Positions 9,741 to 58,497 of a stretch of 64,000 bases of DNA are shown here, piece after piece. The position numbers were made by a program, and so were the translations under genes. The first letter of the stretch is position 1; the number at the start of each line of letters is the position of its first letter. Below the pieces are notes generated by a model that searched no databases, was not told the origin of the DNA, and was given only the letters and a program-made list of their open reading frames with translations. Origin of the DNA: Pontimicrobium sp. IMCC45349 (GTDB lineage Bacteria; Bacteroidota; Bacteroidia; Flavobacteriales; Flavobacteriaceae); the NCBI RefSeq assembly GCF_047219225.1, contig NZ_CP178208.1:2804001-2868000 (forward strand). The letters run 5' to 3'.

Positions 9741-9863
9741 TTTTAGTTTATAAGTTTATTTGTTCTGTCATATCGAGCGCAGTCGAGATATCTCATTTTA
9801 TTGTTTATTCGTTCTCGATATTTTCAACATTTTTAAAAATAATTCAAACTAACTTAATTTTGA

Positions 9864-10160
9864 TTATTCTAAACTCACCAATTTATCCACACTCCACGCT
9901 TGTGGTTTGTCATTAAACAATGGTTTTGTTTTAGCCCAAACATTTTTAAATAGTTCGGAGTGTCTGTAATTTTCTAAATCACTTTCTTTTTCCCAATAAC
10001 TATAAGTAAAAAATATGTTTGGATTATTCTTATCTCTATATAACTCTAAAAAACGACAACCATCGAAATTTCGTATATCATTTTTGTTTTTATGAAAGTT
10101 TTCAAGAAACGCATCAATGTTTTCTTCGGCAAAACTCATTTTTACAATACGTACAAACAT
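9864..10160 (-). CDS. antibiotic-biosynthesis-monooxygenase (ABM/Dabb) domain protein
   Basis: A 98-aa ferredoxin-like ABM-type sequence (MFVRIVKMSFAEENIDAFLENF...FFTYSYWEKESDLENYRHSELF). Confidence 0.6.
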   Translation of the reverse strand: MFVRIVKMSFAEENIDAFLENFHKNKNDIRNFDGCRFLELYRDKNNPNIFFTYSYWEKESDLENYRHSELFKNVWAKTKPLFNDKPQAWSVDKLVSLE

Positions 10161-10164
10161 AAAA

Positions 10165-11007
10165 TTATCCTTTTAAAAAGTTTACAGTTACAGTATCCAT
10201 CATAGTTAAGCCCATAAGTGTAGAGGCACTACCAACCGAGGCGCAGTTACTTTTATAAACTGCAATTTCTAAATAGTTTGATGAGTTAAACACTACAAGT
10301 CCTTTACCTTCATCATGACGCTTGTCTTCTGGAATTTCAAAATTGATAATATCGCTGTACTTATGATATATCTTTTTAAACTTATGGTTTCTTGCATACA
10401 CTTCAAAAGGACGTCCTTTTTGAATGCTTTCAAAAAACTTACGTCGTATGTTGGTAATCACGTTTCCGTAATTGTCTATGTAAATTACACTACCAATAAT
10501 TTGGTTTTGCTCAGCATTAACAAACGGAATAATATTTTTTATAGGTTTAATCTTGTCTATTAACTTTCCAATAACCTCCAACGTTCCACCACGAGCTATA
10601 TGACAAGCTACACGCACAAACACATCTAACACAGGGAAGCTTGTAGATATTTTATCGTGAATATTAATTTCTACAATTTTTTCTGGTGCAATTTCGGCAC
10701 AAATCATACTCATAATACCATTGTTGGCACAAATAAAATAATGATCGTCTAGCTTTAATGCAATATGTTTGTTTTCTTGGTTGATTTCAGAATCGATACC
10801 AATAATATGTATGGTGCCTTTAGGAAAACTACTATAAGCATTCTGGATAATATAAGCAGCTTCTGGAATACTAAATGGCGATACAGAGTGTGAGATATCA
10901 ACAATTCTCACATCTGGAACTTCACTATATATAGCGCCTTTTACTGCGCCAGCAAAGTGATCTTTCTCTCCAAAATCAGTTGTTAAGGTAATTATTGCCA
11001 TTGGCAA
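10165..11007 (-). CDS. SAM hydroxide adenosyltransferase (DUF62; fluorinase/chlorinase-like SAM-dependent enzyme family)
   Basis: The N-terminal motif IITLTTDFGEKDHFAGAVKGAIYSEVPDVRIVDISHSVSPFSIPEAAY is characteristic of DUF62 SAM-cleaving enzymes. Length 280 aa. Confidence 0.75.
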   Translation of the reverse strand: MPMAIITLTTDFGEKDHFAGAVKGAIYSEVPDVRIVDISHSVSPFSIPEAAYIIQNAYSSFPKGTIHIIGIDSEINQENKHIALKLDDHYFICANNGIMSMICAEIAPEKIVEINIHDKISTSFPVLDVFVRVACHIARGGTLEVIGKLIDKIKPIKNIIPFVNAEQNQIIGSVIYIDNYGNVITNIRRKFFESIQKGRPFEVYARNHKFKKIYHKYSDIINFEIPEDKRHDEGKGLVVFNSSNYLEIAVYKSNCASVGSASTLMGLTMMDTVTVNFLKG

Positions 11008-13274: not shown

Positions 13275-13300
13275 TTTATATACAGAAGAAATATAAAATG

Positions 13301-13332
13301 AAAAGCCCTTGAATTATCAAGGGCTTTTTTTG
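13301..13332 (+). terminator. rho-independent terminator of purC (AGCCCTTGAATTATCAAGGGCT + T7)
   Basis: A perfect 8-bp GC-containing stem followed by TTTTTTT, 27 nt after the purC stop. Confidence 0.8.
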
Positions 13333-13340
13333 TGTTTATT

Positions 13341-13551
13341 TTGAAGGTTCGTTTAACGGTCTAGTATAAGAAAAGTAGGGCAGTTGTATGCGTTACTTTT
13401 CGGATTAAGCTAAAGCCGAATTTTTAAATTTTGTTATTTATCTTTTCTCCTTTTAATATACCAAATTTAAAAATTTGGCGACTTGACAAATACGCACAGA
13501 CCTTTCGATTAAGCACTTTTTGCCCTATTTTTTTTATACATTGTTAGGCAC
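13341..13551. repeat. B-type cassette-flanking element, copy B1 (3' flank of the DUF262/HEPN cassette)
   Basis: It begins with GAAGGTTCGTTTAACGG, the same core as at 20758, 34026 and 53946. About 200 nt are homologous to 20755-20904. The inner end (tatacattGTTAGGCAC) overlaps the stop codon of the 13544..14050 gene and is the inverted partner of GTGCCTAAC at 15146. Confidence 0.8.
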
Positions 13552-14050
13552 TGGCTTCTTCTTGATTTAATTCCGTTTCAATGAACCTAATCACTTCTAT
13601 TGTTTTGTTTAAATAATTTTCCAATTTTATTATTGTAATGTCAGAATCTCTACCGTGTGCAATATTATGTCTGTCTTTTAAAATATAATTTATAGCTGCA
13701 CCACGATTTTCCTCTTGCAAGTAATCCCGTAATAAGTCGTGCCAATCAGGATTAAAGGACTTTGCTAATGCTCTTATTTTTTCACTATTAGCATTTTGTA
13801 TTTTATAGAGTTGTGATTTTGCATAAGTCAAAACAACAGATGGCTCACAACTATTTTCGGCAATATCAGTAAAAGCGTGGTAAACAGAATTTTCTATAAA
13901 TCCGGAACAGAGAACACAAATATATTTTGTTAAATGCGACCTCAATTCGTCATCAGGTTCGAATTCCTTGGCTTTTAATATTAATTGCTGAATACGATTG
14001 TATTGTATATTTAATTCGGGATTATTGAACATATTGATTAATATATTCAT
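13544..14050 (-). CDS. HEPN-domain protein (predicted RNase/toxin-type effector), partner of the DUF262 protein
   Basis: 168 aa with an R-x4-H HEPN motif (RHNIAHG) near the C-terminus. It overlaps the upstream DUF262 gene by 29 nt. Confidence 0.6.
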   Translation of the reverse strand: MNILINMFNNPELNIQYNRIQQLILKAKEFEPDDELRSHLTKYICVLCSGFIENSVYHAFTDIAENSCEPSVVLTYAKSQLYKIQNANSEKIRALAKSFNPDWHDLLRDYLQEENRGAAINYILKDRHNIAHGRDSDITIIKLENYLNKTIEVIRFIETELNQEEASA

Positions 14051-15116
14051 TGAACAATCTGTGTCTTTCTGCTACAACTTTATCATCTGAAGTAGCTCTA
14101 GTTATTGAATCAACAAAATCTTGATTTTGATATAGAGTATTTATGTTTTGGGCAAATGCCTCAAAATCAATATTTTCATCTATTCTGTTTGCTATTCCAA
14201 CCATTAAAACCTCAAATGCTGATGCATTAAATACTCTGTCTGGTCTAAATGCAGATTTGCCAATATTTTCAAGTATAATATCGGTAGTTCTTTTAAAAAT
14301 CGAACTTAATCTTTCTAATTCTTCTTCTGTTGGGTTTCTATAACGGCCATTAAACTTATTTAAAAACTCCTTTAGAGGTTTACTATATCTATCTAGCGAA
14401 TTATACATAGCAAAAAATCTCAATATCATTTCTTGGTCTTTAAGTCTATTATTCTTTTTACCGAATAATTCTCTCCAAGCTGGATAATCATTTAATTCTG
14501 CAATTAATTCATTCAACTTCCCAATATAAATTGCTGCTCTAATTTCTTGGGGTGTAAGTTTTCTTCCACCTGTATTTAATCGTTCAAAAACGTGATAAAT
14601 ACTGGTGTTATCATCAGTTGGTGTCTCTTGTTTAATTATTGTAGCGTGAATAATTGAATCATCAAGATTTATTCTGTCATCTTCTTCTAACTCTTCATAA
14701 GTTTTGCCTTCGAATTTTTCTTGAACGTTTTTGAGCCTAAATACTTTTTTTCTTGTATCTCCTTCTTTGGGATTGAAAAAGCCTTCATAGAAAAAAAGCA
14801 ATGATTTTAATCGTTGTTGTCCGTCAATTACTGAAAGTTTATTAGAATCACTCTCTTTGGCTAAAAATACTCCTGGTACTGGAAGTCCAAGCAATAAAGA
14901 CTCAACGAGTCTAGAAGCTTCAGCTTGATTCCAAACATAATCTCTCTGAAATGGCGGTATGAAAATGTCTCCTCTTTTAAGTCTTTTTACAAGTCCTTCT
15001 ACATCATAATCAGCTCCATAACTTGATATTCCATAAATTTGAGGTGAAGATGAATCTTCATTTTCTTCAACATCAATTACTGGGTCATCTATATCTTCTG
15101 TTTCGTATCCATTCAT
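14022..15116 (-). CDS. DUF262 (ParB/Srx-like nuclease-fold) domain protein
   Basis: Motifs FQRDYVW and VIDGQQRL are hallmark DUF262 (GmrS-like N-terminal domain) signatures. 364 aa. Confidence 0.75.
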   Translation of the reverse strand: MNGYETEDIDDPVIDVEENEDSSSPQIYGISSYGADYDVEGLVKRLKRGDIFIPPFQRDYVWNQAEASRLVESLLLGLPVPGVFLAKESDSNKLSVIDGQQRLKSLLFFYEGFFNPKEGDTRKKVFRLKNVQEKFEGKTYEELEEDDRINLDDSIIHATIIKQETPTDDNTSIYHVFERLNTGGRKLTPQEIRAAIYIGKLNELIAELNDYPAWRELFGKKNNRLKDQEMILRFFAMYNSLDRYSKPLKEFLNKFNGRYRNPTEEELERLSSIFKRTTDIILENIGKSAFRPDRVFNASAFEVLMVGIANRIDENIDFEAFAQNINTLYQNQDFVDSITRATSDDKVVAERHRLFNEYINQYVQ

Positions 15117-15145
15117 ATTTTTTATTTCTAAGAGTTTGTTTTTCA

Positions 15146-15262
15146 GCTTGTGCCTAACGTATTTATATAAACACGTTTTAATGGTTTATATAAAAGTGTT
15201 AAACGAAGTTAGCGTTTTTACGTCAGAAAATCAATACGTATAAATACGTAATTTTATAGTAT
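15146..15262. repeat. A-type cassette-flanking element, copy A1 (5'/promoter-side flank of the DUF262/HEPN cassette)
   Basis: ~110 bp near-identical to 24106-24222 and 34874-34980. Contains TTTATATAAA-N13-TTTATATAAA, GTTAAACGAAGTT (inverted partner of the B core) and TACGTA-N4-TACGTA. It lies 37 nt upstream of the start of the 14022..15116 gene. Confidence 0.85.
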
Positions 15263-15297
15263 TTGTTCCAAATTTGTATCAAACTAAGAAGGAGCAT

Positions 15298-15870
15298 TTA
15301 TCCTTTTCCGTATCCAAGCCAACTTACTATTAATTGATTAATAACAAAAACAGCAAGAATTATTATTAAAACATAAGAATACTTGATAATCTTTTCTTTT
15401 ATGGATGTTTTTTGAGTTCCATCAAAATGAGTAAGAGTTTTAATTACGTTTATAATTTTTGGTTTGTTGATGTAAAGAATTACTATTAGCATTAATAGAT
15501 ATAGTATAGCGCTCGCTAATGCTCCGTATTTATCAAGAAAAAAAATGTCAAATACAATTACATTTACCATTATTGGAATTAATATTAAGGTTCCAATTAG
15601 CTTTGTTCTATTAAAAAGAAGTAAAGTAGCACCTACAATTTGGCAAACTCCAATAAATAATACATAACCATATGAACGTCCCATAAATACCCAAGCTAGT
15701 TCAAAATTTGGGATTTGTTTTATAGGCATTGATTCTATGTGAGTAGGTATTAAATCTGGTGTGTAGAATTGTCCGCCAATTGCTTTTCCTAGTCCATATG
15801 CAGCAAGAAAAAAGAATACATAAAAACGACATACAATTTCAATAGTTTCTTTAATGTTGATTTTTTTCAT
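15298..15870 (-). CDS. hypothetical integral membrane protein (DoxX-like multi-TM)
   Basis: 190 aa with 4-5 hydrophobic helices. No catalytic motif. Confidence 0.45.
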   Translation of the reverse strand: MKKINIKETIEIVCRFYVFFFLAAYGLGKAIGGQFYTPDLIPTHIESMPIKQIPNFELAWVFMGRSYGYVLFIGVCQIVGATLLLFNRTKLIGTLILIPIMVNVIVFDIFFLDKYGALASAILYLLMLIVILYINKPKIINVIKTLTHFDGTQKTSIKEKIIKYSYVLIIILAVFVINQLIVSWLGYGKG

Positions 15871-17912: not shown

Positions 17913-18944
17913 ATGAAAAAATATTTAGAAACAATACTACACGTTTTAATTTGGGGAATTTCCTATGTGTTGATCTTAAATTTCATAAACACTATTTCCG
18001 ATTTTAGAAAAGATGAAGGTCCATTTTGGCTTGCCATACTATTTGGAATGTTTATGAACCAAATTTTATTTTATACTACGGCTTTTTATATCGTTCCAAA
18101 GTTTTTACGATTAAAAAAAATAGCACTTCTAGTTATCTCTTTAATAGGTGTTTTTGTATTTATAAATTTATTGGAAAGCATTATAGATTACTATTGGTTG
18201 GTTGGATTTTTTTCAAGTGAGAGTGAATCTTTTGTAACCTATTTGAGTTATAATTCTATCAGTAGCTTTTTTATACTTTTATTAGGTTTGTCATATGCTT
18301 TAATTAAGTATTGGTTTCAAAATGAAAAATTAAAAAGAACCTTATATGAAGAGAAGTTAACTACAGAAATGACTTTTCTTAAGACTCAAATTAATCCTCA
18401 TTTTTTGTTTAATGTACTTAATAGTTTTTATGCTAAGGCATTAAAAAATGATGTGCCAGACTTGGCAGATGGTATATCTAAATTAGCAGATTTAATGCGT
18501 TATATGGTGTATGAAATTAATGAAGATAGCATTGCCTTAGAAAAAGAAATCCATCATCTTAAAAAGTTTATTCAGGTGTATCAGTTACGTATTGCTGAAG
18601 ATGACGATGTGTTTATTAATTTTACTGTTAAAGGAACTGTTGAGAACGTGCAAATTAGTCCTATGTTGCTTATTCCTTTTGTAGAAAATGCCATTAAACA
18701 TGGAATTGATCCTAAAACTAAATCTGTTATAAACATAACTTTGGAGGTTATAGAAAACAGCTTGGTATATAAAGTAACCAATACAGTTCATAAAAACGCG
18801 TATGATTTGAAGGATACTTCTTCTGGGTTTGGTTTAGATAATTTAAAGAAGAGACTAACTATTTTATATCCCAATTTACATACTATAGAAACCAAAGAAG
18901 AAGATGGATATTTCGTTTCTTTACTTAAATTGCAAATAGAATAA
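17913..18944 (+). CDS. LytS-type membrane sensor histidine kinase (5TM sensor + His_kinase domain)
   Basis: N-terminal multi-TM region, then H-box LKTQINPHFLFNVLNSFYAKAL and an HATPase-like C-terminus (GFGLDNLKKRL). Confidence 0.8.
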   Translation: MKKYLETILHVLIWGISYVLILNFINTISDFRKDEGPFWLAILFGMFMNQILFYTTAFYIVPKFLRLKKIALLVISLIGVFVFINLLESIIDYYWLVGFFSSESESFVTYLSYNSISSFFILLLGLSYALIKYWFQNEKLKRTLYEEKLTTEMTFLKTQINPHFLFNVLNSFYAKALKNDVPDLADGISKLADLMRYMVYEINEDSIALEKEIHHLKKFIQVYQLRIAEDDDVFINFTVKGTVENVQISPMLLIPFVENAIKHGIDPKTKSVINITLEVIENSLVYKVTNTVHKNAYDLKDTSSGFGLDNLKKRLTILYPNLHTIETKEEDGYFVSLLKLQIE

Positions 18945-18951
18945 CTGTGTT

Positions 18952-19662
18952 ATGAATTATATAATAATTGATGATGAACCCGCTGCTATAGATGTTCTTG
19001 AGTTTCATCTTAGTAAGATTCCGTTTATGGAGTTAAAAGCAACATTCAGAGATCCTTTGGATGCTCTTGAGTATCTTCAAAAACACACTGTTGATCTTCT
19101 TTTTTTGGATATTAATATGCCAAAGATATCTGGAATTAAATTTCCTAAATTTTTAGAAAAAGCACCACTTATTATTTTTACAACAGCTTATTCAGAGTAT
19201 GCTTTAGAAAGTTATGAGCTTAAAGCGATAGATTATTTATTAAAACCAATTGGTTTTGAGCGGTTATTACAAGCAGTAATGAAAGCAAAAGAGGCTTTGA
19301 ATCAAAGTGCAGAAGGCGTAAGGTCAAACGCTGAAACTTCTCAAGAAAGACTTGAACAGACTGTTTTTATAAAAAGTGGTTCTGAGTTTCACCAACTATC
19401 CATTCAAGATATAAAATACATTGAAAGCGATGGTAATTATGTAACCTTCCATACAACCAAGCGTTCTATTTTAGCGCGTTATAAGATATCTGAAGTTATA
19501 GAGCTGTTACCTAAGCAGTTTTTTGCAAGAATTCATCGTTCCTTTATTGTAGCTATTAAACATATAGAAATAGTTAAAAAACATTGTGTTATTATAGATG
19601 AAATTGAAATTCCTATTAGTAGCAATTATAGAGATGATTTTTTAGCTATTATTCGCACATAA
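18952..19662 (+). CDS. LytTR-family response regulator
   Basis: REC domain (IIIDDEP..., LLFLDINMP) plus a C-terminal LytTR domain (FFARIHRSFIVAIKHI). It starts 8 nt after the kinase gene. Confidence 0.85.
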   Translation: MNYIIIDDEPAAIDVLEFHLSKIPFMELKATFRDPLDALEYLQKHTVDLLFLDINMPKISGIKFPKFLEKAPLIIFTTAYSEYALESYELKAIDYLLKPIGFERLLQAVMKAKEALNQSAEGVRSNAETSQERLEQTVFIKSGSEFHQLSIQDIKYIESDGNYVTFHTTKRSILARYKISEVIELLPKQFFARIHRSFIVAIKHIEIVKKHCVIIDEIEIPISSNYRDDFLAIIRT

Positions 19663-20754: not shown

Positions 20755-20904
20755 GAGGAAGTTCGTTTAACGGTCTTGTATATGAAAAGTAGCGGATTTT
20801 ACACACTAACTTTTCGGAATATAACAGACTTTAAATTTATAAAATTCATTTTCGTTTAAGCACTAAAACAGCTATTTTTTATATACGTTGTTGTGTTTTC
20901 GTAC
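20755..20904. repeat. B-type cassette-flanking element, copy B2 (3' flank of the R-M cassette)
   Basis: It starts GAGGAAGTTCGTTTAACGGTCTTGTATATGAAAAGTAG..., homologous to B1 over ~150 nt. The inner end (atatacgttgttgtgttttcgtac) is the inverted partner of gtatgaaacacaacgtattta at 24106. Confidence 0.8.
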
Positions 20905-21013: not shown

Positions 21014-22405
21014 TTATTTCAGATATATTTCGTCTTTCACATAACTTGCGTTTAGCCAAAAACAATGTTTTGTATATTCAGTCAAACCTGTTAATTTATC
21101 TACTACAGGTAATTCATAAGTATCTGCTGCATTTCTCGCGTGTGGTCTAACGTGACTAATTCTGTTTTCAGTTTTCTTTGGGAAATAAGTTTTTCTCACA
21201 CCTTTTTCAGTTACTTCTTTTACGATTTCTCCACTTTTAACTGTCTTTACCATTTCTTGCCAAACATTTTTGGCTTCAACAATATCAGAGTAGGGCATAT
21301 TCCAAAATTTCACTTTTCTTAAAATCAAATTTTCTCCCTCAAATTGATAAAAGACGAAGAAAAATTTACTTTCCAAAATGTTCTTAAAATCTGAATCTTC
21401 CCAATCTGTTTCAACAAGTTCTAGATATTCAAATGTAGGAAACGAAATATCTTCTTTTGGTAAATCATTTTCTTTAAGTCGAATAGTTTTGACTTGAATA
21501 TCTGCTTTTTCAAATTCCTCTATCTTTTGACCGAGTTCAAGTCCAAGAATAGCATTTGTAAGATTTGCAAAATAACTTTTAGCTTTCTGGTTTAATTCTA
21601 AACCCAATTCTTGTTCAATTTGTTCAGCGGATTTTCCATAAAATGGGTGGAATTTTAGAATTACTATTTCTTCTATTGAACGTACTTTTTCTAAAATTTC
21701 TGGCTGCTCAATTATTTTTCCATAAACAGCTGTTTCTTCTTGAGCAATATTTGCGATTATATGATTGACATAACCTTGTTTTAAAGAATATGCTCTTTGT
21801 TTTGCTTTTTCATTATTAAATGGCTGGTCTCTATATGATTTTAGAGCTGTTGAGCCTTTTGTACAAGCTCCAAGATAAAATGTATCTCCTTCTGATAATT
21901 CGTGAGCTTTTCCGTCTTTTATTTTTTGATTGATAAATTCCCAATCTTGCTTAATAATTTTTAAATCTTCGTTCGGATATTGCCAACCGTCAACTAACTT
22001 TATTATGTAGTCAAGTAAATTTAAATCTCTGTCGTGTAGATAGAATACTAAAAGTAAATGGGCATTTTTCTTCCAAAATGAACTAGTTTCAAACTCTTCT
22101 TTGTGAACTTCTAAATAATTAATGATATTTAAAACAAGTCTTTCTTTTGAACGATATTCTCCATTTTTTAAAGTTTTTAATGGACTTGATTTTAGTTCAA
22201 TTCCTGCTTCTTTAAAATCAGGTTCTGCATCAGAATTTGGTTCGTAACCAAAATAGAATTTTTCTAAAATCTGACCGAAATTTCCCTTTCCTTTATAACC
22301 GTGTTTTTCAATTTCAACTCCACAAGCTTGTCTTAAAGTTTGGTTTTTAAGTTGTTTTGCAAATTCTATTATTGAATCTGCCGAAGTTATATCAAGCATA
22401 TTCAA
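21014..22405 (-). CDS. type II restriction endonuclease, MutH/Sau3AI family
   Basis: The N-terminal block GKGNFGQILEKFYFGYEPNSDAEPDFKEAGIELKSSPL matches the MutH/Sau3AI catalytic signature D-x6-E-x-K. 463 aa. It overlaps the upstream C5-methyltransferase gene by 14 nt. Confidence 0.7.
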   Translation of the reverse strand: MNMLDITSADSIIEFAKQLKNQTLRQACGVEIEKHGYKGKGNFGQILEKFYFGYEPNSDAEPDFKEAGIELKSSPLKTLKNGEYRSKERLVLNIINYLEVHKEEFETSSFWKKNAHLLLVFYLHDRDLNLLDYIIKLVDGWQYPNEDLKIIKQDWEFINQKIKDGKAHELSEGDTFYLGACTKGSTALKSYRDQPFNNEKAKQRAYSLKQGYVNHIIANIAQEETAVYGKIIEQPEILEKVRSIEEIVILKFHPFYGKSAEQIEQELGLELNQKAKSYFANLTNAILGLELGQKIEEFEKADIQVKTIRLKENDLPKEDISFPTFEYLELVETDWEDSDFKNILESKFFFVFYQFEGENLILRKVKFWNMPYSDIVEAKNVWQEMVKTVKSGEIVKEVTEKGVRKTYFPKKTENRISHVRPHARNAADTYELPVVDKLTGLTEYTKHCFWLNASYVKDEIYLK

Positions 22406-23639
22406 ATTGGTTTATCTGTTTATAAAGTTCTACTCCAATTTTTTCAATTATGCCTACAACTAATGCATTTCCCATAAAAAAGGCTCGTTTAGTGTCTGTA
22501 ATTCCTTCCAATTTGGTGTGATTATCTGGAAACATATTTAATCTCTCTAATTCAATTGGTGTCAATCTTCTTAAACCTCTATCAGAAACAACTACGTGTT
22601 TAAACCTTGAAGGTGATTTTCCACCTTCTCCTGTTATTATTGTTCTAGAAGCATTATCTAGAGCGTCAGGATAAATCATTCCGCCTTCACTATAATTGTA
22701 TTCAAAACCTTCTTTTGTTTTTCTTTTTTCTTTTTTAGCACCTTTTAAATATTCCCATTTTGGTTTGTCGTTTTCATCAATGAAAAATTCAGGTGTTACT
22801 TCTCCGTTTTGTAGAACATCTGCTAAAACAGTTTTTTGCCCATCGTAATTTGGCTCTGTTTTAGTTGTGAAAACTTTATCATTAATTAATAAGCCTGTAT
22901 TTTGAAAAGGCGATAGCTTTCCATTCTTATTGAAATTGTCTGTTATTTCTACTAAATCTCCTTTTAATTCAACTTCTTGAATTGCATTTGTTTTTGCAAC
23001 AGGAAAAGCATTTGCTATTGTTCCTTCTTCTATTAACCAATTTGTTTTATTAGATTTTTTAAGTCTTTTGTAAACGTCAGTTGATTTGTGATAACCTATA
23101 AAGAAAACTCTACGTCTTCTTTGTGGCATTCCATATTCAGCTGCATTTATAACTCGCCATTCTACTGCATAACCTAAATCATTTAAACTTTGTAACATAA
23201 CAGCAAAATCACGACCTCTTTGTTTTGCTGGGGATTTTAAAAGTCTATCAACATTTTCTAAAAAAAGATATTTCGGCTTGTTCTTTTTGTTCTCTAAAAT
23301 TTTATGAATTGACCACCAAAGAACACCTTTTTTACCTTTTAAACCTTTTGAATTATGCAATGTAGTTGCAACAGAATAATCTTGACAAGGAAAACCTCCA
23401 ACTAATAAATCGTGATCTGGAATTTCTTCTACATTTCTTGTTACTACTTCGTTTATATCTTCGTTAGAATGATTTTCATTTCCAAAACGAGCTTCATAAA
23501 CCATTGATGCGTGTTGCGTTTTGGTTGACGGTTCCCATTGATTACTCCAAACAACTTCGTAATTGCTTTTTTCAAGTCCAAGACGAAATCCTCCAACTCC
23601 TGCAAATAATTCTGCAACTCTCATTTTCTTATTTTCCAT
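22392..23639 (-). CDS. DNA (cytosine-5)-methyltransferase
   Basis: Motif I (ELFAGVGGFRLGL), motif IV (GGFPCQDYS) and motif VI (ENV) of C5 methyltransferases. 415 aa. Confidence 0.85.
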   Translation of the reverse strand: MENKKMRVAELFAGVGGFRLGLEKSNYEVVWSNQWEPSTKTQHASMVYEARFGNENHSNEDINEVVTRNVEEIPDHDLLVGGFPCQDYSVATTLHNSKGLKGKKGVLWWSIHKILENKKNKPKYLFLENVDRLLKSPAKQRGRDFAVMLQSLNDLGYAVEWRVINAAEYGMPQRRRRVFFIGYHKSTDVYKRLKKSNKTNWLIEEGTIANAFPVAKTNAIQEVELKGDLVEITDNFNKNGKLSPFQNTGLLINDKVFTTKTEPNYDGQKTVLADVLQNGEVTPEFFIDENDKPKWEYLKGAKKEKRKTKEGFEYNYSEGGMIYPDALDNASRTIITGEGGKSPSRFKHVVVSDRGLRRLTPIELERLNMFPDNHTKLEGITDTKRAFFMGNALVVGIIEKIGVELYKQINQFEYA

Positions 23640-23937
23640 TTTCTTGAGCTTTATAATAGTTAATTTTTTCTTCTGCTACTTTTAATATTTCGGAAGTCGA
23701 TTCCGTGTATTTTAGTTCGTCTGCAATTTTTTCCGAATACCAATTTATGATAAGTTCGTTTTCGGGAAGTTCGTAAAACTTTGCAAGTCTTACGATTTGT
23801 TCCATTGTCGGTTTTCTTTCGTTTTTCTCGAATTTGCTAATCAGAGATTGATCAATATCTACTTCAGCTGCAACTTTTCGAAGTATCAATTCTTTTTCCT
23901 CTCTGGCACATTTTAAAGTGTCGCCTAATGTTTTCAT
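23629..23937 (-). CDS. XRE-family HTH transcriptional regulator, probable controller (C) protein of the R-M operon
   Basis: A 102-aa helix-turn-helix protein (LRKVAAEVDIDQSLISKFEKNERKPTMEQIVRLAKFY). It is the first gene of the C-M-R operon and overlaps the methyltransferase start by 11 nt. Confidence 0.65.
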   Translation of the reverse strand: MKTLGDTLKCAREEKELILRKVAAEVDIDQSLISKFEKNERKPTMEQIVRLAKFYELPENELIINWYSEKIADELKYTESTSEILKVAEEKINYYKAQENGK

Positions 23938-24105: not shown

Positions 24106-24222
24106 TAGTATGAAACACAACGTATTTATATAAACACGTTTTAATGGTTTATATAAAAGTGTTAAACGAAGTTAGCATTTTTGAGCTTAAAAATCAATAC
24201 GTAGAAATACGTAATTTGAGTA
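24106..24222. repeat. A-type cassette-flanking element, copy A2 (5' flank of the R-M cassette)
   Basis: Near-identical to A1 and A3 (GTATTTATATAAACACGTTTTAATGGTTTATATAAAAGTGTTAAACGAAGTTAGC...AATCAATACGTAGAAATACGTAATTT). Confidence 0.85.
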
Positions 24223-25039: not shown

Positions 25040-25843
25040 TCACGCTTCATTTAAACTGCTTTTAATTTTAGTATAGTATGTTTTTGAAAGTGGGATAGTG
25101 TTTTCAAAATCTTTGAAACATATTTTCGCATTTTGAGAATTGCCCTTAACTTCTTTAACGTTTTCCATGTTTAAAAGATAAGAGCGATGACACTTTACTA
25201 AAAAAGGTAATTGTTGATTTGTTTTTAAAAGCGTTTGTCTAAAGGTTTTAGATGTTACAGTATTGTTATCACTTACAAAAAAAATATCAATATAGTTTTC
25301 TACTGCTTTTATATAGAGTAGGTCCTTTCTATTAAGCTTTAATGTTTCATTCTTATTTTCACCAGTTATAATTACTGTGTTTTTTGGAAGTGGGATAATT
25401 AGTTCCCCAAACTTATTGCGTAAAAAGACTACTAAAGGTGAAAAAATTGGAATAAATACTAAAACGATGTGTTGTAGGTAAAGGAAATATGTTTTTATAG
25501 AATAGCTTTCACCATTTATAAAGCGATGATTATATAGATAGATTATAGTTCCAGAAATTGTAAAAAAGATTATTGTAGAAATAATTTCGTTACCGACAGT
25601 CCAAATTTTATTAGAACTATTATATAAAATGTTCTCTAAACTACTTTGTATAAAAAAGGTTGAAAAAAAGAGTATCCCAAAACCTGATAAAATCAAGTTT
25701 TTATAGTTAGATTCATAGTTGTTGGTATCAAAAGGCTGAAGAAATATTATAATAAACGCCAATATGCACCCTAAAATAAAACCAACTAATAATTTATCTT
25801 TTAAGGATGCTATAAAAGGTATTTGTTTATTAAGAAAAGTCAA
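25040..25843 (-). CDS. membrane-anchored LytTR DNA-binding domain protein (no receiver domain)
   Basis: Four or more N-terminal hydrophobic helices followed by a LytTR-type C-terminus (FLVKCHRSYLLNMENVKEVKG). 267 aa. Confidence 0.65.
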   Translation of the reverse strand: MTFLNKQIPFIASLKDKLLVGFILGCILAFIIIFLQPFDTNNYESNYKNLILSGFGILFFSTFFIQSSLENILYNSSNKIWTVGNEIISTIIFFTISGTIIYLYNHRFINGESYSIKTYFLYLQHIVLVFIPIFSPLVVFLRNKFGELIIPLPKNTVIITGENKNETLKLNRKDLLYIKAVENYIDIFFVSDNNTVTSKTFRQTLLKTNQQLPFLVKCHRSYLLNMENVKEVKGNSQNAKICFKDFENTIPLSKTYYTKIKSSLNEA

Positions 25844-34020: not shown

Positions 34021-34165
34021 ATTTGGAAGTTCGTTTAACGTGTTCGTGTATGGTTTGTGCGGAATATTCCGTGAGGAATATTCCGAGTGTTCTGTTGTTT
34101 CTTTAAAGTTAGGAAATTTAATTGAAGTTCATGTGATAGCATGAACTATACACGTTGTTAGGCAT
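34021..34165. repeat. B-type cassette-flanking element, copy B3 (3' flank of the Zn-ribbon/membrane cassette)
   Basis: It starts GGAAGTTCGTTTAACG. It contains twin palindromes GGAATATTCC x2 (34062-34084) and a perfect 8-bp hairpin AGTTCATG-TGATAG-CATGAACT (34125-34146). The inner end tatacacgttGTTAGGCAT overlaps the stop of the 34158 gene and is the inverted partner of ATGCCTAA at 34874. Confidence 0.75.
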
Positions 34166-34529
34166 TGGCTTCTTTATCACTTGATTCAAACCGAGATTCG
34201 ATTAATTTCATTTGATTTAATATATCAATAGGTTTTGAGGTTTCAGACTTATGTTTTTCCTGAGAAAAATAAAGAGATAGTAGTCCACCAACCAGAAATA
34301 TTCCAAATAGAGCAATCACTAAGTATTGATATCGAATGTCCTGAAATTCCGTACCCAATAACGTTATTAGGCAAGGAACACAAGCACCAAGAAATAAAAA
34401 TCCTATTTTATTAAATATATTAACATTTATATCAATTTCTCCTAGTTTATCTTTTATGAATTTCCATTCACTTATAGCAATTGGATAAGCTTTGCCTTTT
34501 TGATGAGACATTAATTCATATTCTTGAGA
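34158..34529 (-). CDS. small two-TM membrane protein (second gene of the Zn-ribbon module; start taken at the internal Met that avoids overlap)
   Basis: The ORF-track version (34158..34598) would overlap the upstream gene by 47 nt. The Met at 34529 (MSDNGNN...) removes the overlap. Two hydrophobic helices (IGFLFLGACVPCLITLLG, LVIALFGIFLVGGLLSLYF). The last codons (..EANA*) are encoded by the B3 repeat. Confidence 0.5.
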   Translation of the reverse strand, partial: SQEYELMSHQKGKAYPIAISEWKFIKDKLGEIDINVNIFNKIGFLFLGACVPCLITLLGTEFQDIRYQYLVIALFGIFLVGGLLSLYFSQEKHKSETSKPIDILNQMKLIESRFESSDKEANA

Positions 34530-34551
34530 TACCGAAAAGTTGTTTCCATTA

Positions 34552-34842
34552 TCACTCATCTTTCTTAGTTTTTTTAGGTTCAACTTTTGGTTTTTCAATA
34601 GCTTGCGAAACTAATGCGTTAACTAAAACAGTATTTCCACAATTATTACAGTTTACGGGAATTATTGGATAGATTGGTCCTCCTCCAATGACAATATTTC
34701 CTCCCTGAAATTGTCTTAATTCATAAACAGTATCGTTAACAGTCCAACTGTTAGAATTACACATTGGACAAGCTCTATTTCCCCATTTCTCATTTAAGTG
34801 TTTTAATAGCTTATCTAAATCCGGTTTGTTGTCTTCTGACAT
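34552..34842 (-). CDS. small Cys4 zinc-ribbon protein
   Basis: 96 aa with CPMC (aa 25-28) and CNNC (aa 65-68) pairs and a Lys-rich C-terminal tail. It is the first gene downstream of the A3 element. Confidence 0.55.
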   Translation of the reverse strand: MSEDNKPDLDKLLKHLNEKWGNRACPMCNSNSWTVNDTVYELRQFQGGNIVIGGGPIYPIIPVNCNNCGNTVLVNALVSQAIEKPKVEPKKTKKDE

Positions 34843-34873: not shown

Positions 34874-34980
34874 ATGCCTAATGTATTTATATAAACACGT
34901 TTTAATGGTTTATATAAATTGTTAAACGAAGTTAGCTTTTTTAAGTAAGAAAATCAATACGTAGAAATACGTATTTAGGC
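34874..34980. repeat. A-type cassette-flanking element, copy A3 (5' flank of the Zn-ribbon/membrane cassette)
   Basis: Near-identical to A1 and A2. TIR-like GTTAAACGAAGTT at 34921-34933 and TACGTAGAAATACGTA at 34958-34973. It begins 32 nt upstream of the start codon at 34842. Confidence 0.85.
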
Positions 34981-53940: not shown

Positions 53941-54083
53941 ATGAGGAGTTCGTTTAACGGTTTTGTGTATGGTTAGTTGCGTGTTTCAGCAACTAATTTT
54001 GCAAATCAAGCCTAATAGAAAATCGTGACGAGTAAGTAGGCGAGTACTAGCAATTAATTATACACGGTGTTGTAAAACGTTTA
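53941..54083. repeat. B-type element, copy B4 (abuts the 3' end of the WD40 gene)
   Basis: It begins GAGGAGTTCGTTTAACGGTTTTGTGTATGG (compare B3 GGAAGTTCGTTTAACGTGTTCGTGTATGG). It contains the hairpin TAGTTGC-GTGTTTCA-GCAACTA followed by ATTTT. Its inner end tatacacggtgttgtaaaacg resembles the B1-B3 inner ends and overlaps the stop at 54081. Confidence 0.65.
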
Positions 54084-55127
54084 TTCTTTGACAACTTCCC
54101 AAATCTTCACTGTTTTATCTTTACTAGGTGTAGCTATTAACTTTCCATCCGAACTTACATCCATCCCCAAACCAATGTCATCCTTATGTTCAGTTATTGT
54201 TTGAAGAATGGTTTCACTTTCAATATCCCATAGTGTTGCTATAACAGGTATTGTATATCCTTTAAAACCAAAATGATATTCTAACAGCTCTCCTAGCATC
54301 TTTTTATCTGTTCCTCCTGCCAAAATTCTATTATTTCCAACAAACACAACTGAATGAAGAGCTTTATTTTCTCCTTTTAATGTATGCATTAATTCCCAAG
54401 TATTGGTATTCCAAATTTTAATGGTTTTATCATCTCCTGCACTTGCTAATAATTCACCATTTGGACTAAAATCCATCGATAGAGGAACTAATGAATGTCC
54501 CAAAATTGTCTTTATTAACGCTCCAGATTTCACATCATATATTCTTATAGCATTATCACTGCCTGAGGCCGCTAAATAGTCTCCAGTGTGATTAAAAACA
54601 ACCTCCCAAATATTATGTGAAGATTCTGTAAATTCATATTTAATTTCTCCAGTATTTATATTCCAAACAGTTACTTTATCATCATTGCTACCAGCTGCTA
54701 TTAAATGACCATTTGGGCTAAAATCTACCGACCAAATAGTACCTTCATTACCATCTAACACTCTTAAAAGCTCTCCAGAACTCACATTCCAAAGTCTTAC
54801 TTTACCATCATAAGCTCCAGTTGCCACTAATGTCCCATCTATATTAAAATCTACAGCTGGTGAGCCCGTTTCATGTGGTAAATTATGTACTGTTTCACCT
54901 GTAATTCTATTCCAAATTTTAGTATTGGAATCTATGCCCCCACTTATCATGAGTGTATCGTTTGGTAAAAATTTCACTTCCCAAACATCACCAGAGTGAT
55001 CTTTAAACGTTTCTTTTAACTTAAGATAATTACCTTCAACTAACTTTGGTTGATTAAATAACTGTAAATATGTAAAACATGCAATACCAAATGCGAGCAA
55101 GGATATTATAATTTTTCTCTTTCTCAT
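54081..55127 (-). CDS. WD40/beta-propeller repeat protein with a signal peptide
   Basis: Repeated ...GH/SxDxTVKIWN/WD-like units throughout. 348 aa. Confidence 0.7.
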   Translation of the reverse strand: MRKRKIIISLLAFGIACFTYLQLFNQPKLVEGNYLKLKETFKDHSGDVWEVKFLPNDTLMISGGIDSNTKIWNRITGETVHNLPHETGSPAVDFNIDGTLVATGAYDGKVRLWNVSSGELLRVLDGNEGTIWSVDFSPNGHLIAAGSNDDKVTVWNINTGEIKYEFTESSHNIWEVVFNHTGDYLAASGSDNAIRIYDVKSGALIKTILGHSLVPLSMDFSPNGELLASAGDDKTIKIWNTNTWELMHTLKGENKALHSVVFVGNNRILAGGTDKKMLGELLEYHFGFKGYTIPVIATLWDIESETILQTITEHKDDIGLGMDVSSDGKLIATPSKDKTVKIWEVVKE

Positions 55128-56372
55128 TTATTTGATGTTTTCTAATTTATCAATCATTCTTTTTGCTGAAGTCGAGCTTGGATCTAATTCTAATGCCTTT
55201 TTGTATGACCTTAAAGCATTCATTTTATCGCGTTTTTGGAAATACGCTTCCCCCAAACTATCCCATGAATTGGCATCCTCTGGAAATAATTTTGTGTTCT
55301 CTTGAAATACAATAATAGCTTCATTGATCAATTTATCTTGTAGAAATCCATAGCCAATACTATTGAATACATTTCCTTTATTTCTAGTAACTGTTTTGTT
55401 TATAGCATTAATATAAGCAATTACAAAAGCCTCATTACTATTGGTTTTAACGTTGGGCTGTACACCTTTGCCCTCCCAATTTGTTTTTGTTACTGGATGT
55501 ATTGCTTGAATGTATGGTAACGAAATAGAAAAGTTATCGTTTAAATTTATAGTTTTTGTTCTGTTAGCTCCTCCTTTAGTAACTTCACCTACGACAACAG
55601 CTTTATCTAAATGTTTTAATGAATAGGTAAAAGCTTCTGCAGCAGAAAATGTGTTTTTACTTGTTAATATATATAAAGGTTTATTAGTCATCCTTTTACC
55701 ATCGATAGTTTTGAAGGTGAATAATTGTGTTTTTTCATTCGTTTTACGCTCATAGAAATTACTCAACAAAACAGGTTCCGGATCCGTAAAATAACTAGAT
55801 AACAATTGTACCATACCTGGAACACCTCCACCATTTTTTCTTAAATCTATAATAATAGCATTGGTATTGTATAGAAAGTTCATCGCAGAGGTTGCGGCAT
55901 CTTTTCCTTGTTCAAGGCTTGTAAACATACGTAAATTCAAATAGCCAATATTTCCTTTAAGAACTTTAACTTCTGTAAAACCATAATTGATTTCTGCCAT
56001 TTTCATTGCTATCATTCTCTCTTTTTGTTTTTTCATTTCTTCTGGCATAACATGTTTACTTTGTGCTATTTTTTTTGAAGCATAATTTAGTTTTAAATGT
56101 AGATCATGACTTACGTTTTGTAAATCTTGAGTAACTAGTTTTACAAAATCTTTAGGGTTTGTAACCAACTTGTACTTGTTCGATTTTAAATTAGATTTTA
56201 AGACAGAGTTCATTTCTTGGGCAATCTCTAAATCTATATATGTTTCCAATAAATTCTCTGAAATCAACTGTATTACTTCAGTTTTTTCCTTATTAGTGAT
56301 TTCCTTATTCTGTGCTTTAAGACTTAATAGAGCTAGAAACAATAATACTAATGTTATAATTTGTTTTCTCAT
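55128..56372 (-). CDS. S41-family (tail-specific/C-terminal processing) peptidase with C-terminal TPR-like repeats
   Basis: S41 signature IIDLRKNGGGVPGMV plus the C-terminal DSLGEAYFQKRDKMNALRSYKKALELDP. Signal peptide. It abuts the WD40 gene with no gap. Confidence 0.7.
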   Translation of the reverse strand: MRKQIITLVLLFLALLSLKAQNKEITNKEKTEVIQLISENLLETYIDLEIAQEMNSVLKSNLKSNKYKLVTNPKDFVKLVTQDLQNVSHDLHLKLNYASKKIAQSKHVMPEEMKKQKERMIAMKMAEINYGFTEVKVLKGNIGYLNLRMFTSLEQGKDAATSAMNFLYNTNAIIIDLRKNGGGVPGMVQLLSSYFTDPEPVLLSNFYERKTNEKTQLFTFKTIDGKRMTNKPLYILTSKNTFSAAEAFTYSLKHLDKAVVVGEVTKGGANRTKTINLNDNFSISLPYIQAIHPVTKTNWEGKGVQPNVKTNSNEAFVIAYINAINKTVTRNKGNVFNSIGYGFLQDKLINEAIIVFQENTKLFPEDANSWDSLGEAYFQKRDKMNALRSYKKALELDPSSTSAKRMIDKLENIK

Positions 56373-56578
56373 TTTGACCGATTTTAAATTTGATACAAAC
56401 CTATAGTCAATCTGTAAACCATTGAATTTAATTTCTTGTTTACATATCTTTTAAACACACATATGATTGTTTTAGTCACTAACTAAACTTGCGTCTGTTA
56501 ATAATACGTTTGTGAAGCTTTTTGGTATGTTGGTGCAAAACATTCTATGAATAACTTTAAGATTATTAGTTTTACAGT

Positions 56579-58407: not shown

Positions 58408-58419
58408 TATATTACTTTT

Positions 58420-58497
58420 CGTTATAAAATGTTAAAGGAAGTTAGCTTTTTTACATTACAAAATCAATGCGTAGAAATACGTATTTAATAACTGTAA
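58420..58497. repeat. truncated/degenerate A-type element, copy A4
   Basis: It matches the distal ~75 nt of the A element (..tgttaaaGgaagttagcttttttacattacaaaatcaatGcgtagaaatacgtattta) and lacks the first ~35 nt (TTTATATAAA pair). Confidence 0.7.

What the first reader, a model, noticed from the sequence alone, without database searches (positions are those of the whole stretch)
13527..15160. Cassette-specific, co-varying inverted repeats sit at the inner edges of A and B, and the left one overlaps the stop codon
Cassette 1 is bounded by tatacattGTTAGGCAC (13534-13551) and GTGCCTAACgtattta (15146-15160). Cassette 3 is bounded by tatacacgttGTTAGGCAT (34147-34165) and ATGCCTAATgtattta (34874-34888). 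Cassette 2 is bounded by atatacgttgttgtgttttcgtac (20881-20904) and gtatgaaacacaacgtattta (24106-24126). In each case the two ends of one cassette are inverted complements of each other, but they differ between cassettes (CAC/GTG vs CAT/ATG vs an entirely different tract). A shared ATAC-R-TTG junction lies next to the conserved A/B bodies. Such co-variation is expected if a recombinase acts on these ends (inversion of the whole module relative to the promoter in A, giving phase-variable ON/OFF, or cassette capture by a palindrome-recognising mechanism). In cassettes 1 and 3 the left repeat supplies the last codons of two unrelated proteins, which therefore both end ...E-A-S/N-A-stop.
Basis: seen in the sequence. 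Interest (0 to 1): 0.8.

Follow-up and report, generated by a model that had tools for sequence, protein, structure and literature searches.

The report
Integron-like gene cassettes in a flavobacterium
The matching inverted repeats are the two halves of a hairpin-forming recombination site carried by each mobile gene cassette, which shows that marine flavobacteria, a group thought to lack integrons, swap defence and other accessory genes in and out of small promoter-plus-hairpin docking sites much as integrons do, with no integrase gene nearby.

Summary
Three segments in the window are bounded by perfect 9-nt inverted repeats, GTT-N6 and N6'-AAY, that differ between segments. In cassettes 1 and 3 the left repeat encodes the last codons and the TAA stop.

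The repeats are not inversion sites. On the cargo strand each unit reads as follows:
- a promoter-like block
- a small hairpin site, TTCGTTTAAC..loop..G|TT
- the cassette, TT-N6'..genes..N6-AAC, with a conserved body of 111-186 nt in the window
- G|TTAAACGAA

So the co-varying ends are the R' and R'' boxes of the cassette's own attC-like site, split by integration at G|TT. The outer TTCGTTTAAC/GTTAAACGAA pair belongs to the docking site.

Comparison with 89 related loci shows:
- empty sites
- orthologous sites that are empty in one genome and occupied in another, with the breakpoint in the AA-Y step
- the same site holding different cassettes, including the window's own site 1 in a 98%-identical strain
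- the window's cassette 1 sitting inside a multi-cassette array elsewhere
- constant gene orientation, 20 of 20

No tyrosine recombinase lies near any site, so the enzyme is unidentified and must act in trans.

Verdict: an integron-type cassette system, a new variant, in Flavobacteriales.

The parts
13346..13357 (+). Site 1, outer box on the A side (GGTTCGTTTAAC). This is the R'' half of the docking site, displaced by the insertion. The inferred crossover lies within AA|C at 13356/13357.
   Evidence: Exact TTCGTTTAAC at 13348-13357. Strain contigs L079 and L080 are 98% identical up to about 13369 and then diverge.
13357..13542 (+). Cassette 1 attC-like body (A body), 186 nt. It has an L stem GTATAAGAAAAGTAGGGC / GCCCTATTTTTTTTATAC and a variable top.
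   Evidence: The DNA fold of the reconstructed junction is -33.8 kcal/mol and shows an R stem, an asymmetric loop and an L stem. nhmmer hit to the A-body profile.
13543..13551 (+). Cassette 1 inner repeat GTTAGGCAC. On the cargo strand this is R'' GTGCCTAAC, which holds the last codons and the TAA stop of the HEPN gene.
13544..15116 (-). Cassette 1 cargo: a GmrSD_N/DUF262 protein (14022-15116) and a RiboL-PSP HEPN protein (13544-14050). Together they form a two-gene defence system of the PD-T4-2 / NsnA type.
   Evidence: Pfam. PADLOC NsnA 7e-72 and PD-T4-2_A 5e-56.
15150..15158 (+). Cassette 1 right repeat GTGCCTAAC. On the cargo strand this is R', G|TTAGGCAC. The last base, C at 15158, belongs to the docking site.
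   Evidence: The base-ownership argument comes from the AAT/AAC junctions.
15159..15197 (+). Docking-site hairpin 1. Stems are TTTATATAAAC (15162-15172) and GTTTATATAAA (15184-15194), with loop ACGTTTTAATG.
   Evidence: The loop GTTTTAAT is conserved and the stem covaries across 43 sites.
15198..15254 (+). Docking-site R' box GTTAAACGAA followed by a promoter-like block. On the cargo strand it reads TTGATTTT..20 nt..TAACTTCG. It also carries the TACGTA direct repeat.
   Evidence: AAAnTCAA is 83-97% conserved at a fixed distance outside the search pattern.
20760..20898 (+). Site 2: outer box AGTTCGTTTAAC (20760-20771), A body (20771-20889) and inner repeat GTTGTGTTT (20890-20898).
21014..23937 (-). 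Cassette 2 cargo: an HTH controller protein, a C5 cytosine methyltransferase and a MutH/Sau3AI-like endonuclease (type II restriction-modification).
   Evidence: Pfam. PADLOC MTase_II 4.5e-179 and REase_II 3.8e-104.
24113..24217 (+). Site 2: right repeat AAACACAAC (24113-24121), hairpin (24122-24160), and R' GTTAAACGAA with the promoter-like block (24161-24217).
34028..34165 (+). Site 3: outer box AGTTCGTTTAAC (34028-34039), A body (34039-34156) and inner repeat GTTAGGCAT (34157-34165). The inner repeat supplies the N-A-stop codons.
34158..34842 (-). Cassette 3 cargo: a 96-aa protein and a 133/146-aa two-TM protein. Neither belongs to a known family.
   Evidence: No Pfam or PADLOC hit. Homologues occur in cassette arrays of other flavobacteria.
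34874..34977 (+). Site 3: right repeat ATGCCTAA|T (34874-34882), hairpin (34883-34920), and R' GTTAAACGAA with the promoter-like block (34921-34977).
53947..54078 (+). Site 4: outer box AGTTCGTTTAAC, A body and inner box GTTGTAAAAC.
54081..56372 (-). Site 4 cargo: a WD40 propeller protein and an S41 peptidase-TPR protein. The right end of the cassette is not resolved.
   Evidence: Pfam. Candidate right box GTTTTACAGT at 56569-56578, for which chance is not excluded.
58431..58487 (+). Site 4: remnant of the R' and promoter-like block (GTTAAAGGAAGTTAGC..AAAATCAATGCGTAGAAATACGTA) without a hairpin.

Best explanation
Each A..B unit is a mobile gene cassette sitting in a dedicated chromosomal docking site. 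The logic is that of an integron.

**The docking site.** It is about 110 nt long. It holds a promoter-like block that points into a short hairpin, and the foot of the hairpin is the pair TTCGTTTAAC / GTTAAACGAA.

**The cassette.** It carries one to three genes in a single orientation, followed by its own long imperfect hairpin site, the 'A body'. The foot of that hairpin is a cassette-specific pair, N6-AAC / GTT-N6'.

**The reaction.** A site-specific recombinase most likely acts on the folded single strand. It is probably a tyrosine recombinase of the IntI or Xer kind, encoded elsewhere in the genome. The folded strand is the window's + strand, which is the 'bottom' strand relative to the genes. 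The enzyme exchanges strands in the AA|C step of both partners.

**The consequences.**
- Integration splits the cassette's site. TT-N6' ends up at the 5' end of the cassette, next to the docking hairpin. N6-AAC plus the body ends up at the 3' end. These are the co-varying inverted repeats.
- Excision restores the empty site and a circular cassette.
- Genes are read from the docking-site promoter.
- The 3' box often supplies the stop codon.

**What is shown and what is inferred.** Shown: the anatomy, the fold, the covariation, the empty, occupied and replaced states, the arrays and the constant orientation. Inferred: the single-strand substrate, the enzyme class, its action in trans, and promoter activity.
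For: **Anatomy and fold**
- The anatomy is read directly from the sequence.
- Reconstructed circular junctions fold as an R stem, an asymmetric internal loop, an L stem and a variable top.
- The consensus of 15 junctions has 27 pairs, 17 of them with compensatory changes.
- The docking hairpin has a conserved loop, GTTTTAAT, and a covarying stem.

**Empty, occupied and replaced sites**
- 13 unambiguous empty sites carry TTCGTTTAAY directly before the hairpin.
- L030 is empty (..TTCGTTTAA|T-hairpin). Its orthologue L012 reads TTCGTTTAA|C..1.6 kb..AGCCAA|T-hairpin. The flanks are 80-83% identical. L001 and L006 form a similar pair.
- Where the right junction is AAT, the inner box is still GTT and the outer box is still AAC. 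This places the crossover in the AA-Y step.
- The same site holds different cassettes in related genomes: L017, L029 and L045; L008 and L015; L036 and L039.
- Site 1 of the window holds other cassettes in contigs that are 98% identical across phoH and purC.

**Arrays**
- Cassette 1, at 94% identity, lies inside a four-cassette array in L070. Every cassette there has matching R'/R'' boxes.
- L084 has an array of six or more cassettes. Cassette order differs between samples.

**Gene arrangement**
- Gene orientation is constant in 20 of 20 cassettes. In 15 of 20 the last stop codon ends between 8 nt upstream and 8 nt downstream of the start of R''. One more ends 24 nt downstream.
- The ASA/ANA tails travel with homologous cassettes across genera.
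Against: - No recombinase gene was found. The only tyrosine-recombinase hit in 651 kb of window plus 89 loci is a XerD-like gene 4.5 kb from one site.
- The source genome could not be scanned.
- No circular or alternative form was observed for this strain itself.
- The docking site is not an attI next to intI, so this is not a canonical integron.
- The internal loop is more asymmetric than in canonical attC sites: about 6 nt on one strand against 2-3 nt on the other, against roughly 6 and 5 nt in canonical sites. Typical extrahelical bases were not identified.
- The -7-like box TAACTTCG departs from the TAnnTTTG consensus. That consensus is recalled from memory and promoter activity is untested.
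- The related loci were recruited with a 22-nt pattern from B, so that part of B is conserved by construction.
Confidence: 0.75

Rival explanations
1. Invertible segment (phase-variable ON/OFF switch). A recombinase would flip the whole segment between the inverted repeats relative to a fixed promoter.
For: Short inverted repeats bound each segment.
Against: Orientation is constant in 20 of 20 cassettes. Variation between strains is replacement or absence, not inversion. The arms differ between cassettes, whereas one invertase would need one site. Tandem arrays place the R'' of one cassette next to the R' of the next.
Confidence: 0.03
2. Single-strand transposition by an HUH (IS200/IS605-type or RAYT-type) enzyme acting in trans. 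The element would be inserted 3' of a specific sequence and recognised through subterminal hairpins.
For: There is no target-site duplication. Insertion is precise, next to a fixed sequence. Hairpins lie at or near the ends. All four window sites are on the same strand. No transposase lies within the units.
Against: IS200/IS605 ends carry two self-contained hairpins. Here one hairpin site is split by integration, and its foot pairs across the two ends. The conserved AAC/GTT triplets and the 11-bp arm, spacer, arm geometry fit tyrosine-recombinase core sites. Head-to-tail arrays of cassettes that share one site per junction are integron behaviour.
Confidence: 0.07
3. There is no dedicated recombination. 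Cassettes would be swapped by homologous recombination through the conserved A and B flanks after DNA uptake. The co-varying ends would then serve RNA functions, such as 5'-3' pairing or termination of the cassette transcript.
For: A bodies and B elements are conserved enough, at roughly 100-130 nt, to serve as homology arms. The hairpin lies in the predicted 5' UTR and the A body in the 3' UTR.
Against: Homologous recombination does not create or keep a cassette-specific complementary N6 pair. It does not give empty sites in which the two outer boxes rejoin exactly. It does not explain the AAT/AAC base ownership at the junctions. It does not explain arrays in which every junction is R''-body-R'. 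It may well contribute to shuffling in addition.
Confidence: 0.1

Closest known systems
Integron gene cassettes and attC sites, in particular sedentary chromosomal integrons with species-specific attC families such as the Vibrio cholerae repeats. This comparison rests on my own knowledge of Mazel-lab work and on PMC2727003 and PMC4889954.
   Same: - An imperfect-palindrome site with R''..L''..L'..R' and conserved AAC/GTT triplets.
- Crossover at G|TT, so the cassette starts with TT-N and ends with its own site.
- R'/R'' complementarity that is specific to each cassette.
- Compact, promoterless genes in one orientation, with the stop codon often inside R''.
- A body family of about 118-120 nt shared across related hosts.
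- Multi-cassette arrays with shuffled order.
- Cargo rich in defence systems and in small secreted or unknown proteins.
   Different: - No intI next to any array or site.
- The recipient is not an attI. It is a small attC-like hairpin with a conserved loop, fused to a promoter-like block.
- Such recipients are scattered as single-cassette sites, four in 64 kb here.
- The variable part of the R box is 6 nt inside an 11-bp arm.
- The internal loop is more asymmetric.
- The host phylum is regarded as essentially integron-free (PMC9024848; bioRxiv 10.1101/2024.07.02.601686).
CALIN (clusters of attC sites lacking an integron-integrase; Cury et al. 2016, PMC4889954)
   Same: Cassettes with attC-type sites and no integrase nearby. 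The cassettes are thought to be mobilisable in trans.
   Different: CALINs are defined by hits to the IntegronFinder attC model, which could not be run here. They are usually read as broken-off pieces of integrons. Here each unit has its own conserved promoter-hairpin entry site. That site is kept across families of Flavobacteriales, which points to a designed platform and not to debris.
Xer-dependent integrating elements that use folded single-stranded DNA (CTX phage attP(+); IMEX elements). Bacteroidetes ssDNA prophages are proposed to use XerC/D (PMC3091885, PMC9719478).
   Same: No recombinase gene in the element. The folded single strand mimics a two-arm core site. A host-encoded tyrosine recombinase is used. 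The R box GTTAAAC resembles the XerD arm of dif (..ATGTTAAAT), a comparison made from memory.
   Different: Those elements target the single dif site at the terminus. Here there are many dispersed sites with promoters, cassette arrays, and R boxes that vary by cassette.
pdif modules of Acinetobacter plasmids (own knowledge)
   Same: Small gene modules bounded by inversely oriented tyrosine-recombinase sites, moved without a module-encoded recombinase.
   Different: pdif sites are 28-bp double-stranded XerC-spacer-XerD sites. They have no long hairpin body and no cassette-specific co-variation.

Membership tests
Integron (complete) | An integron-integrase gene (intI) adjacent to the cassette array | tested here: not met
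   tblastn and phmmer with IntI1 and XerD against the window and 89 loci (651 kb) gave one XerD-like hit, 4.5 kb from a site in L068. The array start in L084 and L088 is flanked by core genes and a tRNA.
Integron (complete) | An attI site with the Pc promoter at the head of the array | tested here: inconclusive
   A conserved promoter-like block (TTG, 20 nt, TAACTTCG) points into the cassettes. The recipient site is an attC-like hairpin, not an attI next to intI. Promoter activity is untested.
Integron gene cassette / attC site | An imperfect palindrome R''-L''..L'-R' with conserved AAC and GTT triplets that folds as a single strand | tested here: met
   Folds of reconstructed junctions. Consensus structure with 17 of 27 pairs showing compensatory change. 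AAC is present in 14 of 15 and GTT in all 15 junctions.
Integron gene cassette / attC site | Crossover between G and TT of R', so that an integrated cassette begins with TT-N and ends with R''..G | tested here: met
   Empty versus occupied orthologues, base ownership at AAT/AAC junctions and array junctions. The position is resolved only to the shared AA step.
Integron gene cassette / attC site | Genes in one orientation with the attC site downstream, arranged in a compact way | tested here: met
   20 of 20 cassettes have the long ORFs on the cargo strand. In 15 of 20 the last stop codon ends within 8 nt of the start of R''.
Integron gene cassette / attC site | Extrahelical bases and an unpaired central spacer of canonical size that set strand choice | tested here: inconclusive
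   An unpaired asymmetric loop is present, about 6 nt on one strand against 2-3 nt on the other. Canonical extrahelical G/T bases were not identified.
Integron gene cassette / attC site | Detection by the IntegronFinder attC covariance model | not testable with these tools
   The model is not available here. IntegronFinder reports almost nothing in Bacteroidetes (PMC9024848) and found no integron in a Tenacibaculum genome (PMC10013915).
Integron gene cassette / attC site | Recombination catalysed by IntI on the folded bottom strand | not testable with these tools
   This needs the genome-wide gene content and experiments.
Site-specific invertible element (phase variation) | Both orientations occur, with one common inverted-repeat site for one invertase | tested here: not met
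   Orientation is constant. The repeats differ between cassettes.
IS200/IS605-type or MITE-type transposable element | Self-contained terminal hairpins or terminal inverted repeats, with or without a target duplication | tested here: not met
   There is no duplication. The hairpin foot is formed only across the two ends.
Known RNA families (Rfam 15) | A match to a curated covariance model | tested here: not met
   No hit at gathering score in the window. Only chance-level hits in 13300-15320.

The most novel reading that the evidence does not exclude
Flavobacteriales may possess a 'distributed integron'. In this reading one recombinase is encoded far from its substrates. It could be an IntI-like loner, or even the housekeeping Xer pair. 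It would service many small promoter-plus-hairpin docking sites scattered around the chromosome, as well as longer arrays. Defence systems and other accessory genes would be exchanged as circular cassettes with a lineage-specific attC-like family. If so, integron-type gene capture would not be confined to the intI-attI-array architecture. It would also exist in a phylum currently counted as integron-free, and standard tools would miss it.
Probability: 0.5. Interest if true: 0.85.

Novelty: new variant of a known kind. Interest (0 to 1): 0.78.

Why it matters
Integrons are the textbook system for gene capture in bacteria. Surveys based on IntegronFinder conclude that Bacteroidota essentially lack them (PMC9024848; bioRxiv 10.1101/2024.07.02.601686).

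The sequences studied here show the same cassette logic operating across many marine flavobacterial genera and a second family:
- Genera: Pontimicrobium, Polaribacter, Winogradskyella, Tenacibaculum, Psychroserpens, Aquaticitalea, Lacinutrix and Mariniflexile.
- Family: Vicingaceae.

The architecture is different. Conserved docking sites carry their own promoter, are dispersed around the chromosome, and have no integrase nearby.

If this is confirmed, several things follow:
- The taxonomic and architectural range of integron-type recombination widens.
- A new route appears for the turnover of anti-phage defence genes in abundant ocean bacteria.
- A defined, short docking site becomes available that could be used for genetic tools in Bacteroidota.
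- The question of which enzyme acts, and on which DNA strand, becomes directly testable.

Tried and rejected
**Readings considered and rejected**
- Inversion switch. Rejected on constant orientation and on the kind of polymorphism seen.
- Transposon with terminal inverted repeats, or a MITE. There is no target duplication, and empty sites rejoin exactly.
- IS200/IS605-like element. The hairpin is split across the two ends.
- Known RNA motif. Rfam gave nothing.
- Phage or plasmid element. The B motif is absent from viral contigs, and the window has no tRNA or integrase.

**Searches that led nowhere**
- The sigma-70 promoter scan was uninformative for a Bacteroidota host.
- An exact hairpin search in metagenomes found nothing.
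- The IntI1 search of the protein database returned only proteobacterial integrases.
- Exact-protein look-ups of several window genes failed. Start-codon differences may explain some of these. The Pontimicrobium protein P0226, returned by the database itself, also failed, so that genome does not appear to be in the contig index.
- L077 and L078 (a homologue of cassette 1) and L074 (Maribacter) show the same genes without recognisable sites. I take these as decayed or unrelated contexts.
- The right end of locus 4 could not be fixed.
- Papers on Bacteroidetes dif sites give the sequences only in figures, so the comparison with dif rests on memory.
Full report
**1. Observation**

The window has about 31% G+C. 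It probably comes from Pontimicrobium sp. IMCC45349, a member of the Flavobacteriaceae. A 133-aa protein of cassette 3 is 100% identical to a protein of that genome.

The repeats are present as described, with small coordinate offsets:
- Cassette 1: GTTAGGCAC 13543-13551 and GTGCCTAAC 15150-15158.
- Cassette 2: GTTGTGTTT 20890-20898 and AAACACAAC 24113-24121.
- Cassette 3: GTTAGGCAT 34157-34165 and ATGCCTAAT 34874-34882.

Each left arm follows a conserved 'A' element and each right arm precedes a conserved 'B' element. There are four A copies (13346, 20760, 34028, 53947). There are four B copies (15156, 24119, 34879, and a right-half remnant at 58431). All lie in the same orientation.

The left arms of cassettes 1 and 3 encode the last residues and the TAA stop: E-A-S-A-stop and E-A-N-A-stop.

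**2. Anatomy**

All cargo genes lie on the minus strand, so B is upstream of them and A is downstream. Read on the cargo strand, unit 1 has these parts in order:
- TACGTATT-repeat..TTGATTTT..20 nt..GCTAACTTCGTTTAAC
- act-TTTATATAAAC-cattaaaacgt-GTTTATATAAA-tac
- G|TTAGGCAC..GmrSD..HEPN..GTGCCTAAC
- the A' body
- ..gaccG|TTAAACGAAC

Two nested inverted pairs therefore exist:
- The outer pair, TTCGTTTAAC/GTTAAACGAA, is identical in all units.
- The inner pair is specific to each cassette.

If the segment between the two AA|C steps is removed, the outer pair closes over the small hairpin. This gives a 10-bp stem, a 2-3-nt bubble, an 11-bp stem and an 11-nt loop.

If the removed segment is circularised, the inner pair closes over the A body. 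This gives a 9-12-bp stem, an asymmetric loop, a second stem (GTRTA../..TAYAC) and a variable top. The fold energies are -33.8, -14.6 and -28.2 kcal/mol.

This is the layout of an integron attC site (R'', L'', L', R' with AAC/GTT triplets) split by integration at G|TT.

**3. Related loci**

A 22-nt pattern from B found 34 loci in genomes and 35 in metagenomes. The genomes include Algibacter, Aquaticitalea, Mariniflexile, Lacinutrix, Polaribacter, Winogradskyella, Tenacibaculum, Gaetbulibacter, Psychroserpens and Vicingaceae. The pattern found nothing in viral contigs.

Beyond the pattern itself, two features are conserved:
- AAAnTCAA at a fixed distance, 83-97% conserved.
- A hairpin with loop GTTTTAAT whose inner stem covaries. 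Pairing is 79-88% against 44-48% in shuffles at four positions, with up to six pair types.

Thirteen unambiguous sites are empty, with TTCGTTTAAY directly before the hairpin. In about 15 occupied sites in other genomes, an exact GTT+N6 partner of the box next to the hairpin lies 0.4-2.6 kb upstream. Where an outer TTCGTTTAAC box is present, the partner usually lies 126-133 nt to its right.

A bodies are homologous across genera. They resemble the host-specific attC families of chromosomal integrons.

**4. Evidence for mobility and for the crossover point**

- L030 (empty) and L012 (occupied) are orthologous, with flanks 80-83% identical. They differ exactly by TTCGTTTAA|T versus TTCGTTTAA|C..1.6 kb..AGCCAA|T. 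L001 and L006 differ likewise.
- Where the right junction reads AAT, the inner box still reads GTT and the outer box still reads AAC. This holds for cassette 3 and for L006, L009, L014, L015, L018, L019, L020, L028 and L034. The last base therefore belongs to the target, and the exchange lies in the AA-Y step.
- The same chromosomal site carries different cassettes in related genomes. L017, L029 and L045 carry three different cassettes at one site, and L065 is a second copy of the L029 allele. Other examples are L008 and L015, L036 and L039 from one metagenome, and L044 (empty) versus L051.
- For the window's own site 1, contigs L079 and L080 are 98% identical across phoH, purC and the outer box. 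They then carry other cassettes.
- Cassette 1 itself, at 94% identity, lies in L070 inside an array. There four successive cassettes each have matching boxes: GTGTAC/GTACAC, AGGCAC/GTGCCT, GTGTGC/GCACAC.
- Homologues of cassette 3 lie in arrays of five to eight cassettes. Cassette order differs between ocean samples. L063 holds a two-cassette array.

**5. Structure statistics**

RNAalifold on 15 reconstructed junctions gives 27 pairs, 17 of them with compensatory changes. The six N6 pairs are never broken. Those partners were selected by complementarity, so the fixed position of the partners is the independent evidence. The L stem, which was not selected, also covaries.

**6. Genes**

- Cassette 1 is a PD-T4-2/NsnA-like defence pair. 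Cassette 2 is a type II restriction-modification system with a controller protein. Cassette 3 encodes two unknown small proteins. Locus 4 encodes a WD40 protein and an S41-TPR protein.
- Cassettes elsewhere carry restriction enzymes, Mrr-like nucleases, lipoproteins, T9SS-tailed proteins and unknowns.
- Orientation is constant in 20 of 20 cassettes. In 15 of 20 the last stop codon ends within 8 nt of the start of R''.
- 43 of 105 HEPN homologues end in ..ASA, and further ones in close variants. Seven full-length homologues of 155-156 aa end a few residues earlier without such a tail. Tails such as ..NNV arise when translation runs through a box of the GCCAAC type into AAC-GTA-TAA.
- Four of five homologues of the 2-TM protein end in ANA, ASA or TSA.

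**7. What is missing**

No tyrosine recombinase is encoded in the window or near any site. The single exception in 651 kb is a XerD-like gene in L068. The rest of the window consists of ordinary chromosomal genes: dnaN, phoH, purC, transporters, beta-lactamase-fold proteins, two-component systems and acetyl-CoA synthetases. The enzyme must therefore act in trans, and it remains unidentified. The genome could not be reached with the tools.

**8. Comparison with what is known**

The system works like an integron cassette system and passes the cassette and attC tests that could be run. It fails the test for a complete integron, because no adjacent intI and no attI were found.

The nearest named category is CALIN (PMC4889954). 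The conserved promoter-hairpin entry site, dispersed as single-cassette units, is not part of that description.

IntegronFinder surveys report only loner integrases and one Salinibacter integron in Bacteroidetes. A 2024 preprint treats Bacteroidota as a clade without integrons. IntegronFinder found none in a Tenacibaculum genome. Eight full-text searches found no description of such a system in flavobacteria.

**9. Verdict**

- The inversion reading is rejected and the capture reading is supported.
- The best explanation is integron-type site-specific recombination of cassettes into dedicated docking sites by an unidentified trans-acting recombinase (confidence 0.75).
- Novelty: a new variant of a known kind.
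- Interest: 0.78.

Noticed in passing
window 672-1424, 18952-19662, 25040-25843, 57700-58407; B blocks at 15230-15250, 24193-24213, 34953-34973, 58463-58483: The 64-kb window holds four LytTR-type regulators, three of them paired with histidine kinases. The window-type B block carries a direct repeat, TACGTATT-tc-TACGTATT, that abuts the -33-like TTG. This could be a regulator binding site that controls cassette expression.
   Followed up: no
window 53947-58487: The fourth unit has the outer box, an A body and a cargo (WD40 plus S41-TPR) but no hairpin. A histidine kinase/LytTR operon on the opposite strand lies between the cargo and a mutated remnant of B (GTTAAAGGAAGTTAGC). The right end of the cassette is unresolved.
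   Followed up: partly
L082, L084, L085, L088, L089 (ocean metagenome contigs): These loci hold arrays of five to eight cassettes whose order differs between samples. The array in L084 and L088 starts just downstream of a tRNA-Met-like gene, and no integrase lies within 4.7 kb. An ORF-less unit of about 300 nt (G|TTGGCAGAAATG..CTGCCAAC..CATGGGCG|TT) recurs at least five times in L082.
   Followed up: partly
L010, L020, L054, L061 (docking-site hairpins): The hairpin loop carries an insert of about 30 nt with a shared core (..AGCTCAGGATAAATTCAA..). It may be a small secondary insertion.
   Followed up: no
L074 (Maribacter sp. ACAM166) 8917-10489 and 18517-19520: A copy of the GmrSD and HEPN genes lies between sulfatase genes and an AraC-family gene. 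It has no docking site, and its R'' has decayed to GCCTGAC. About 9 kb away, a group II intron maturase-domain ORF sits next to a weak A-body-like match. In classical integrons, group IIC introns target attC sites.
   Followed up: no
L028 and L034 (Psychroserpens luteus, one contig): At least three complete units (outer box, cassette, hairpin, promoter block) lie in tandem, each followed by the same stretch of about 50 nt. Whole platforms can therefore be duplicated, not only cassettes.
   Followed up: partly
window 48174-50060 and 50170-52077; 2857-3141 and 3373-3657: There are tandem paralogous acetyl-CoA synthetase genes. There is also an internal 285-nt repeat, 82% identical, inside a leucine-rich-repeat protein with a T9SS sorting tail.
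   Followed up: no
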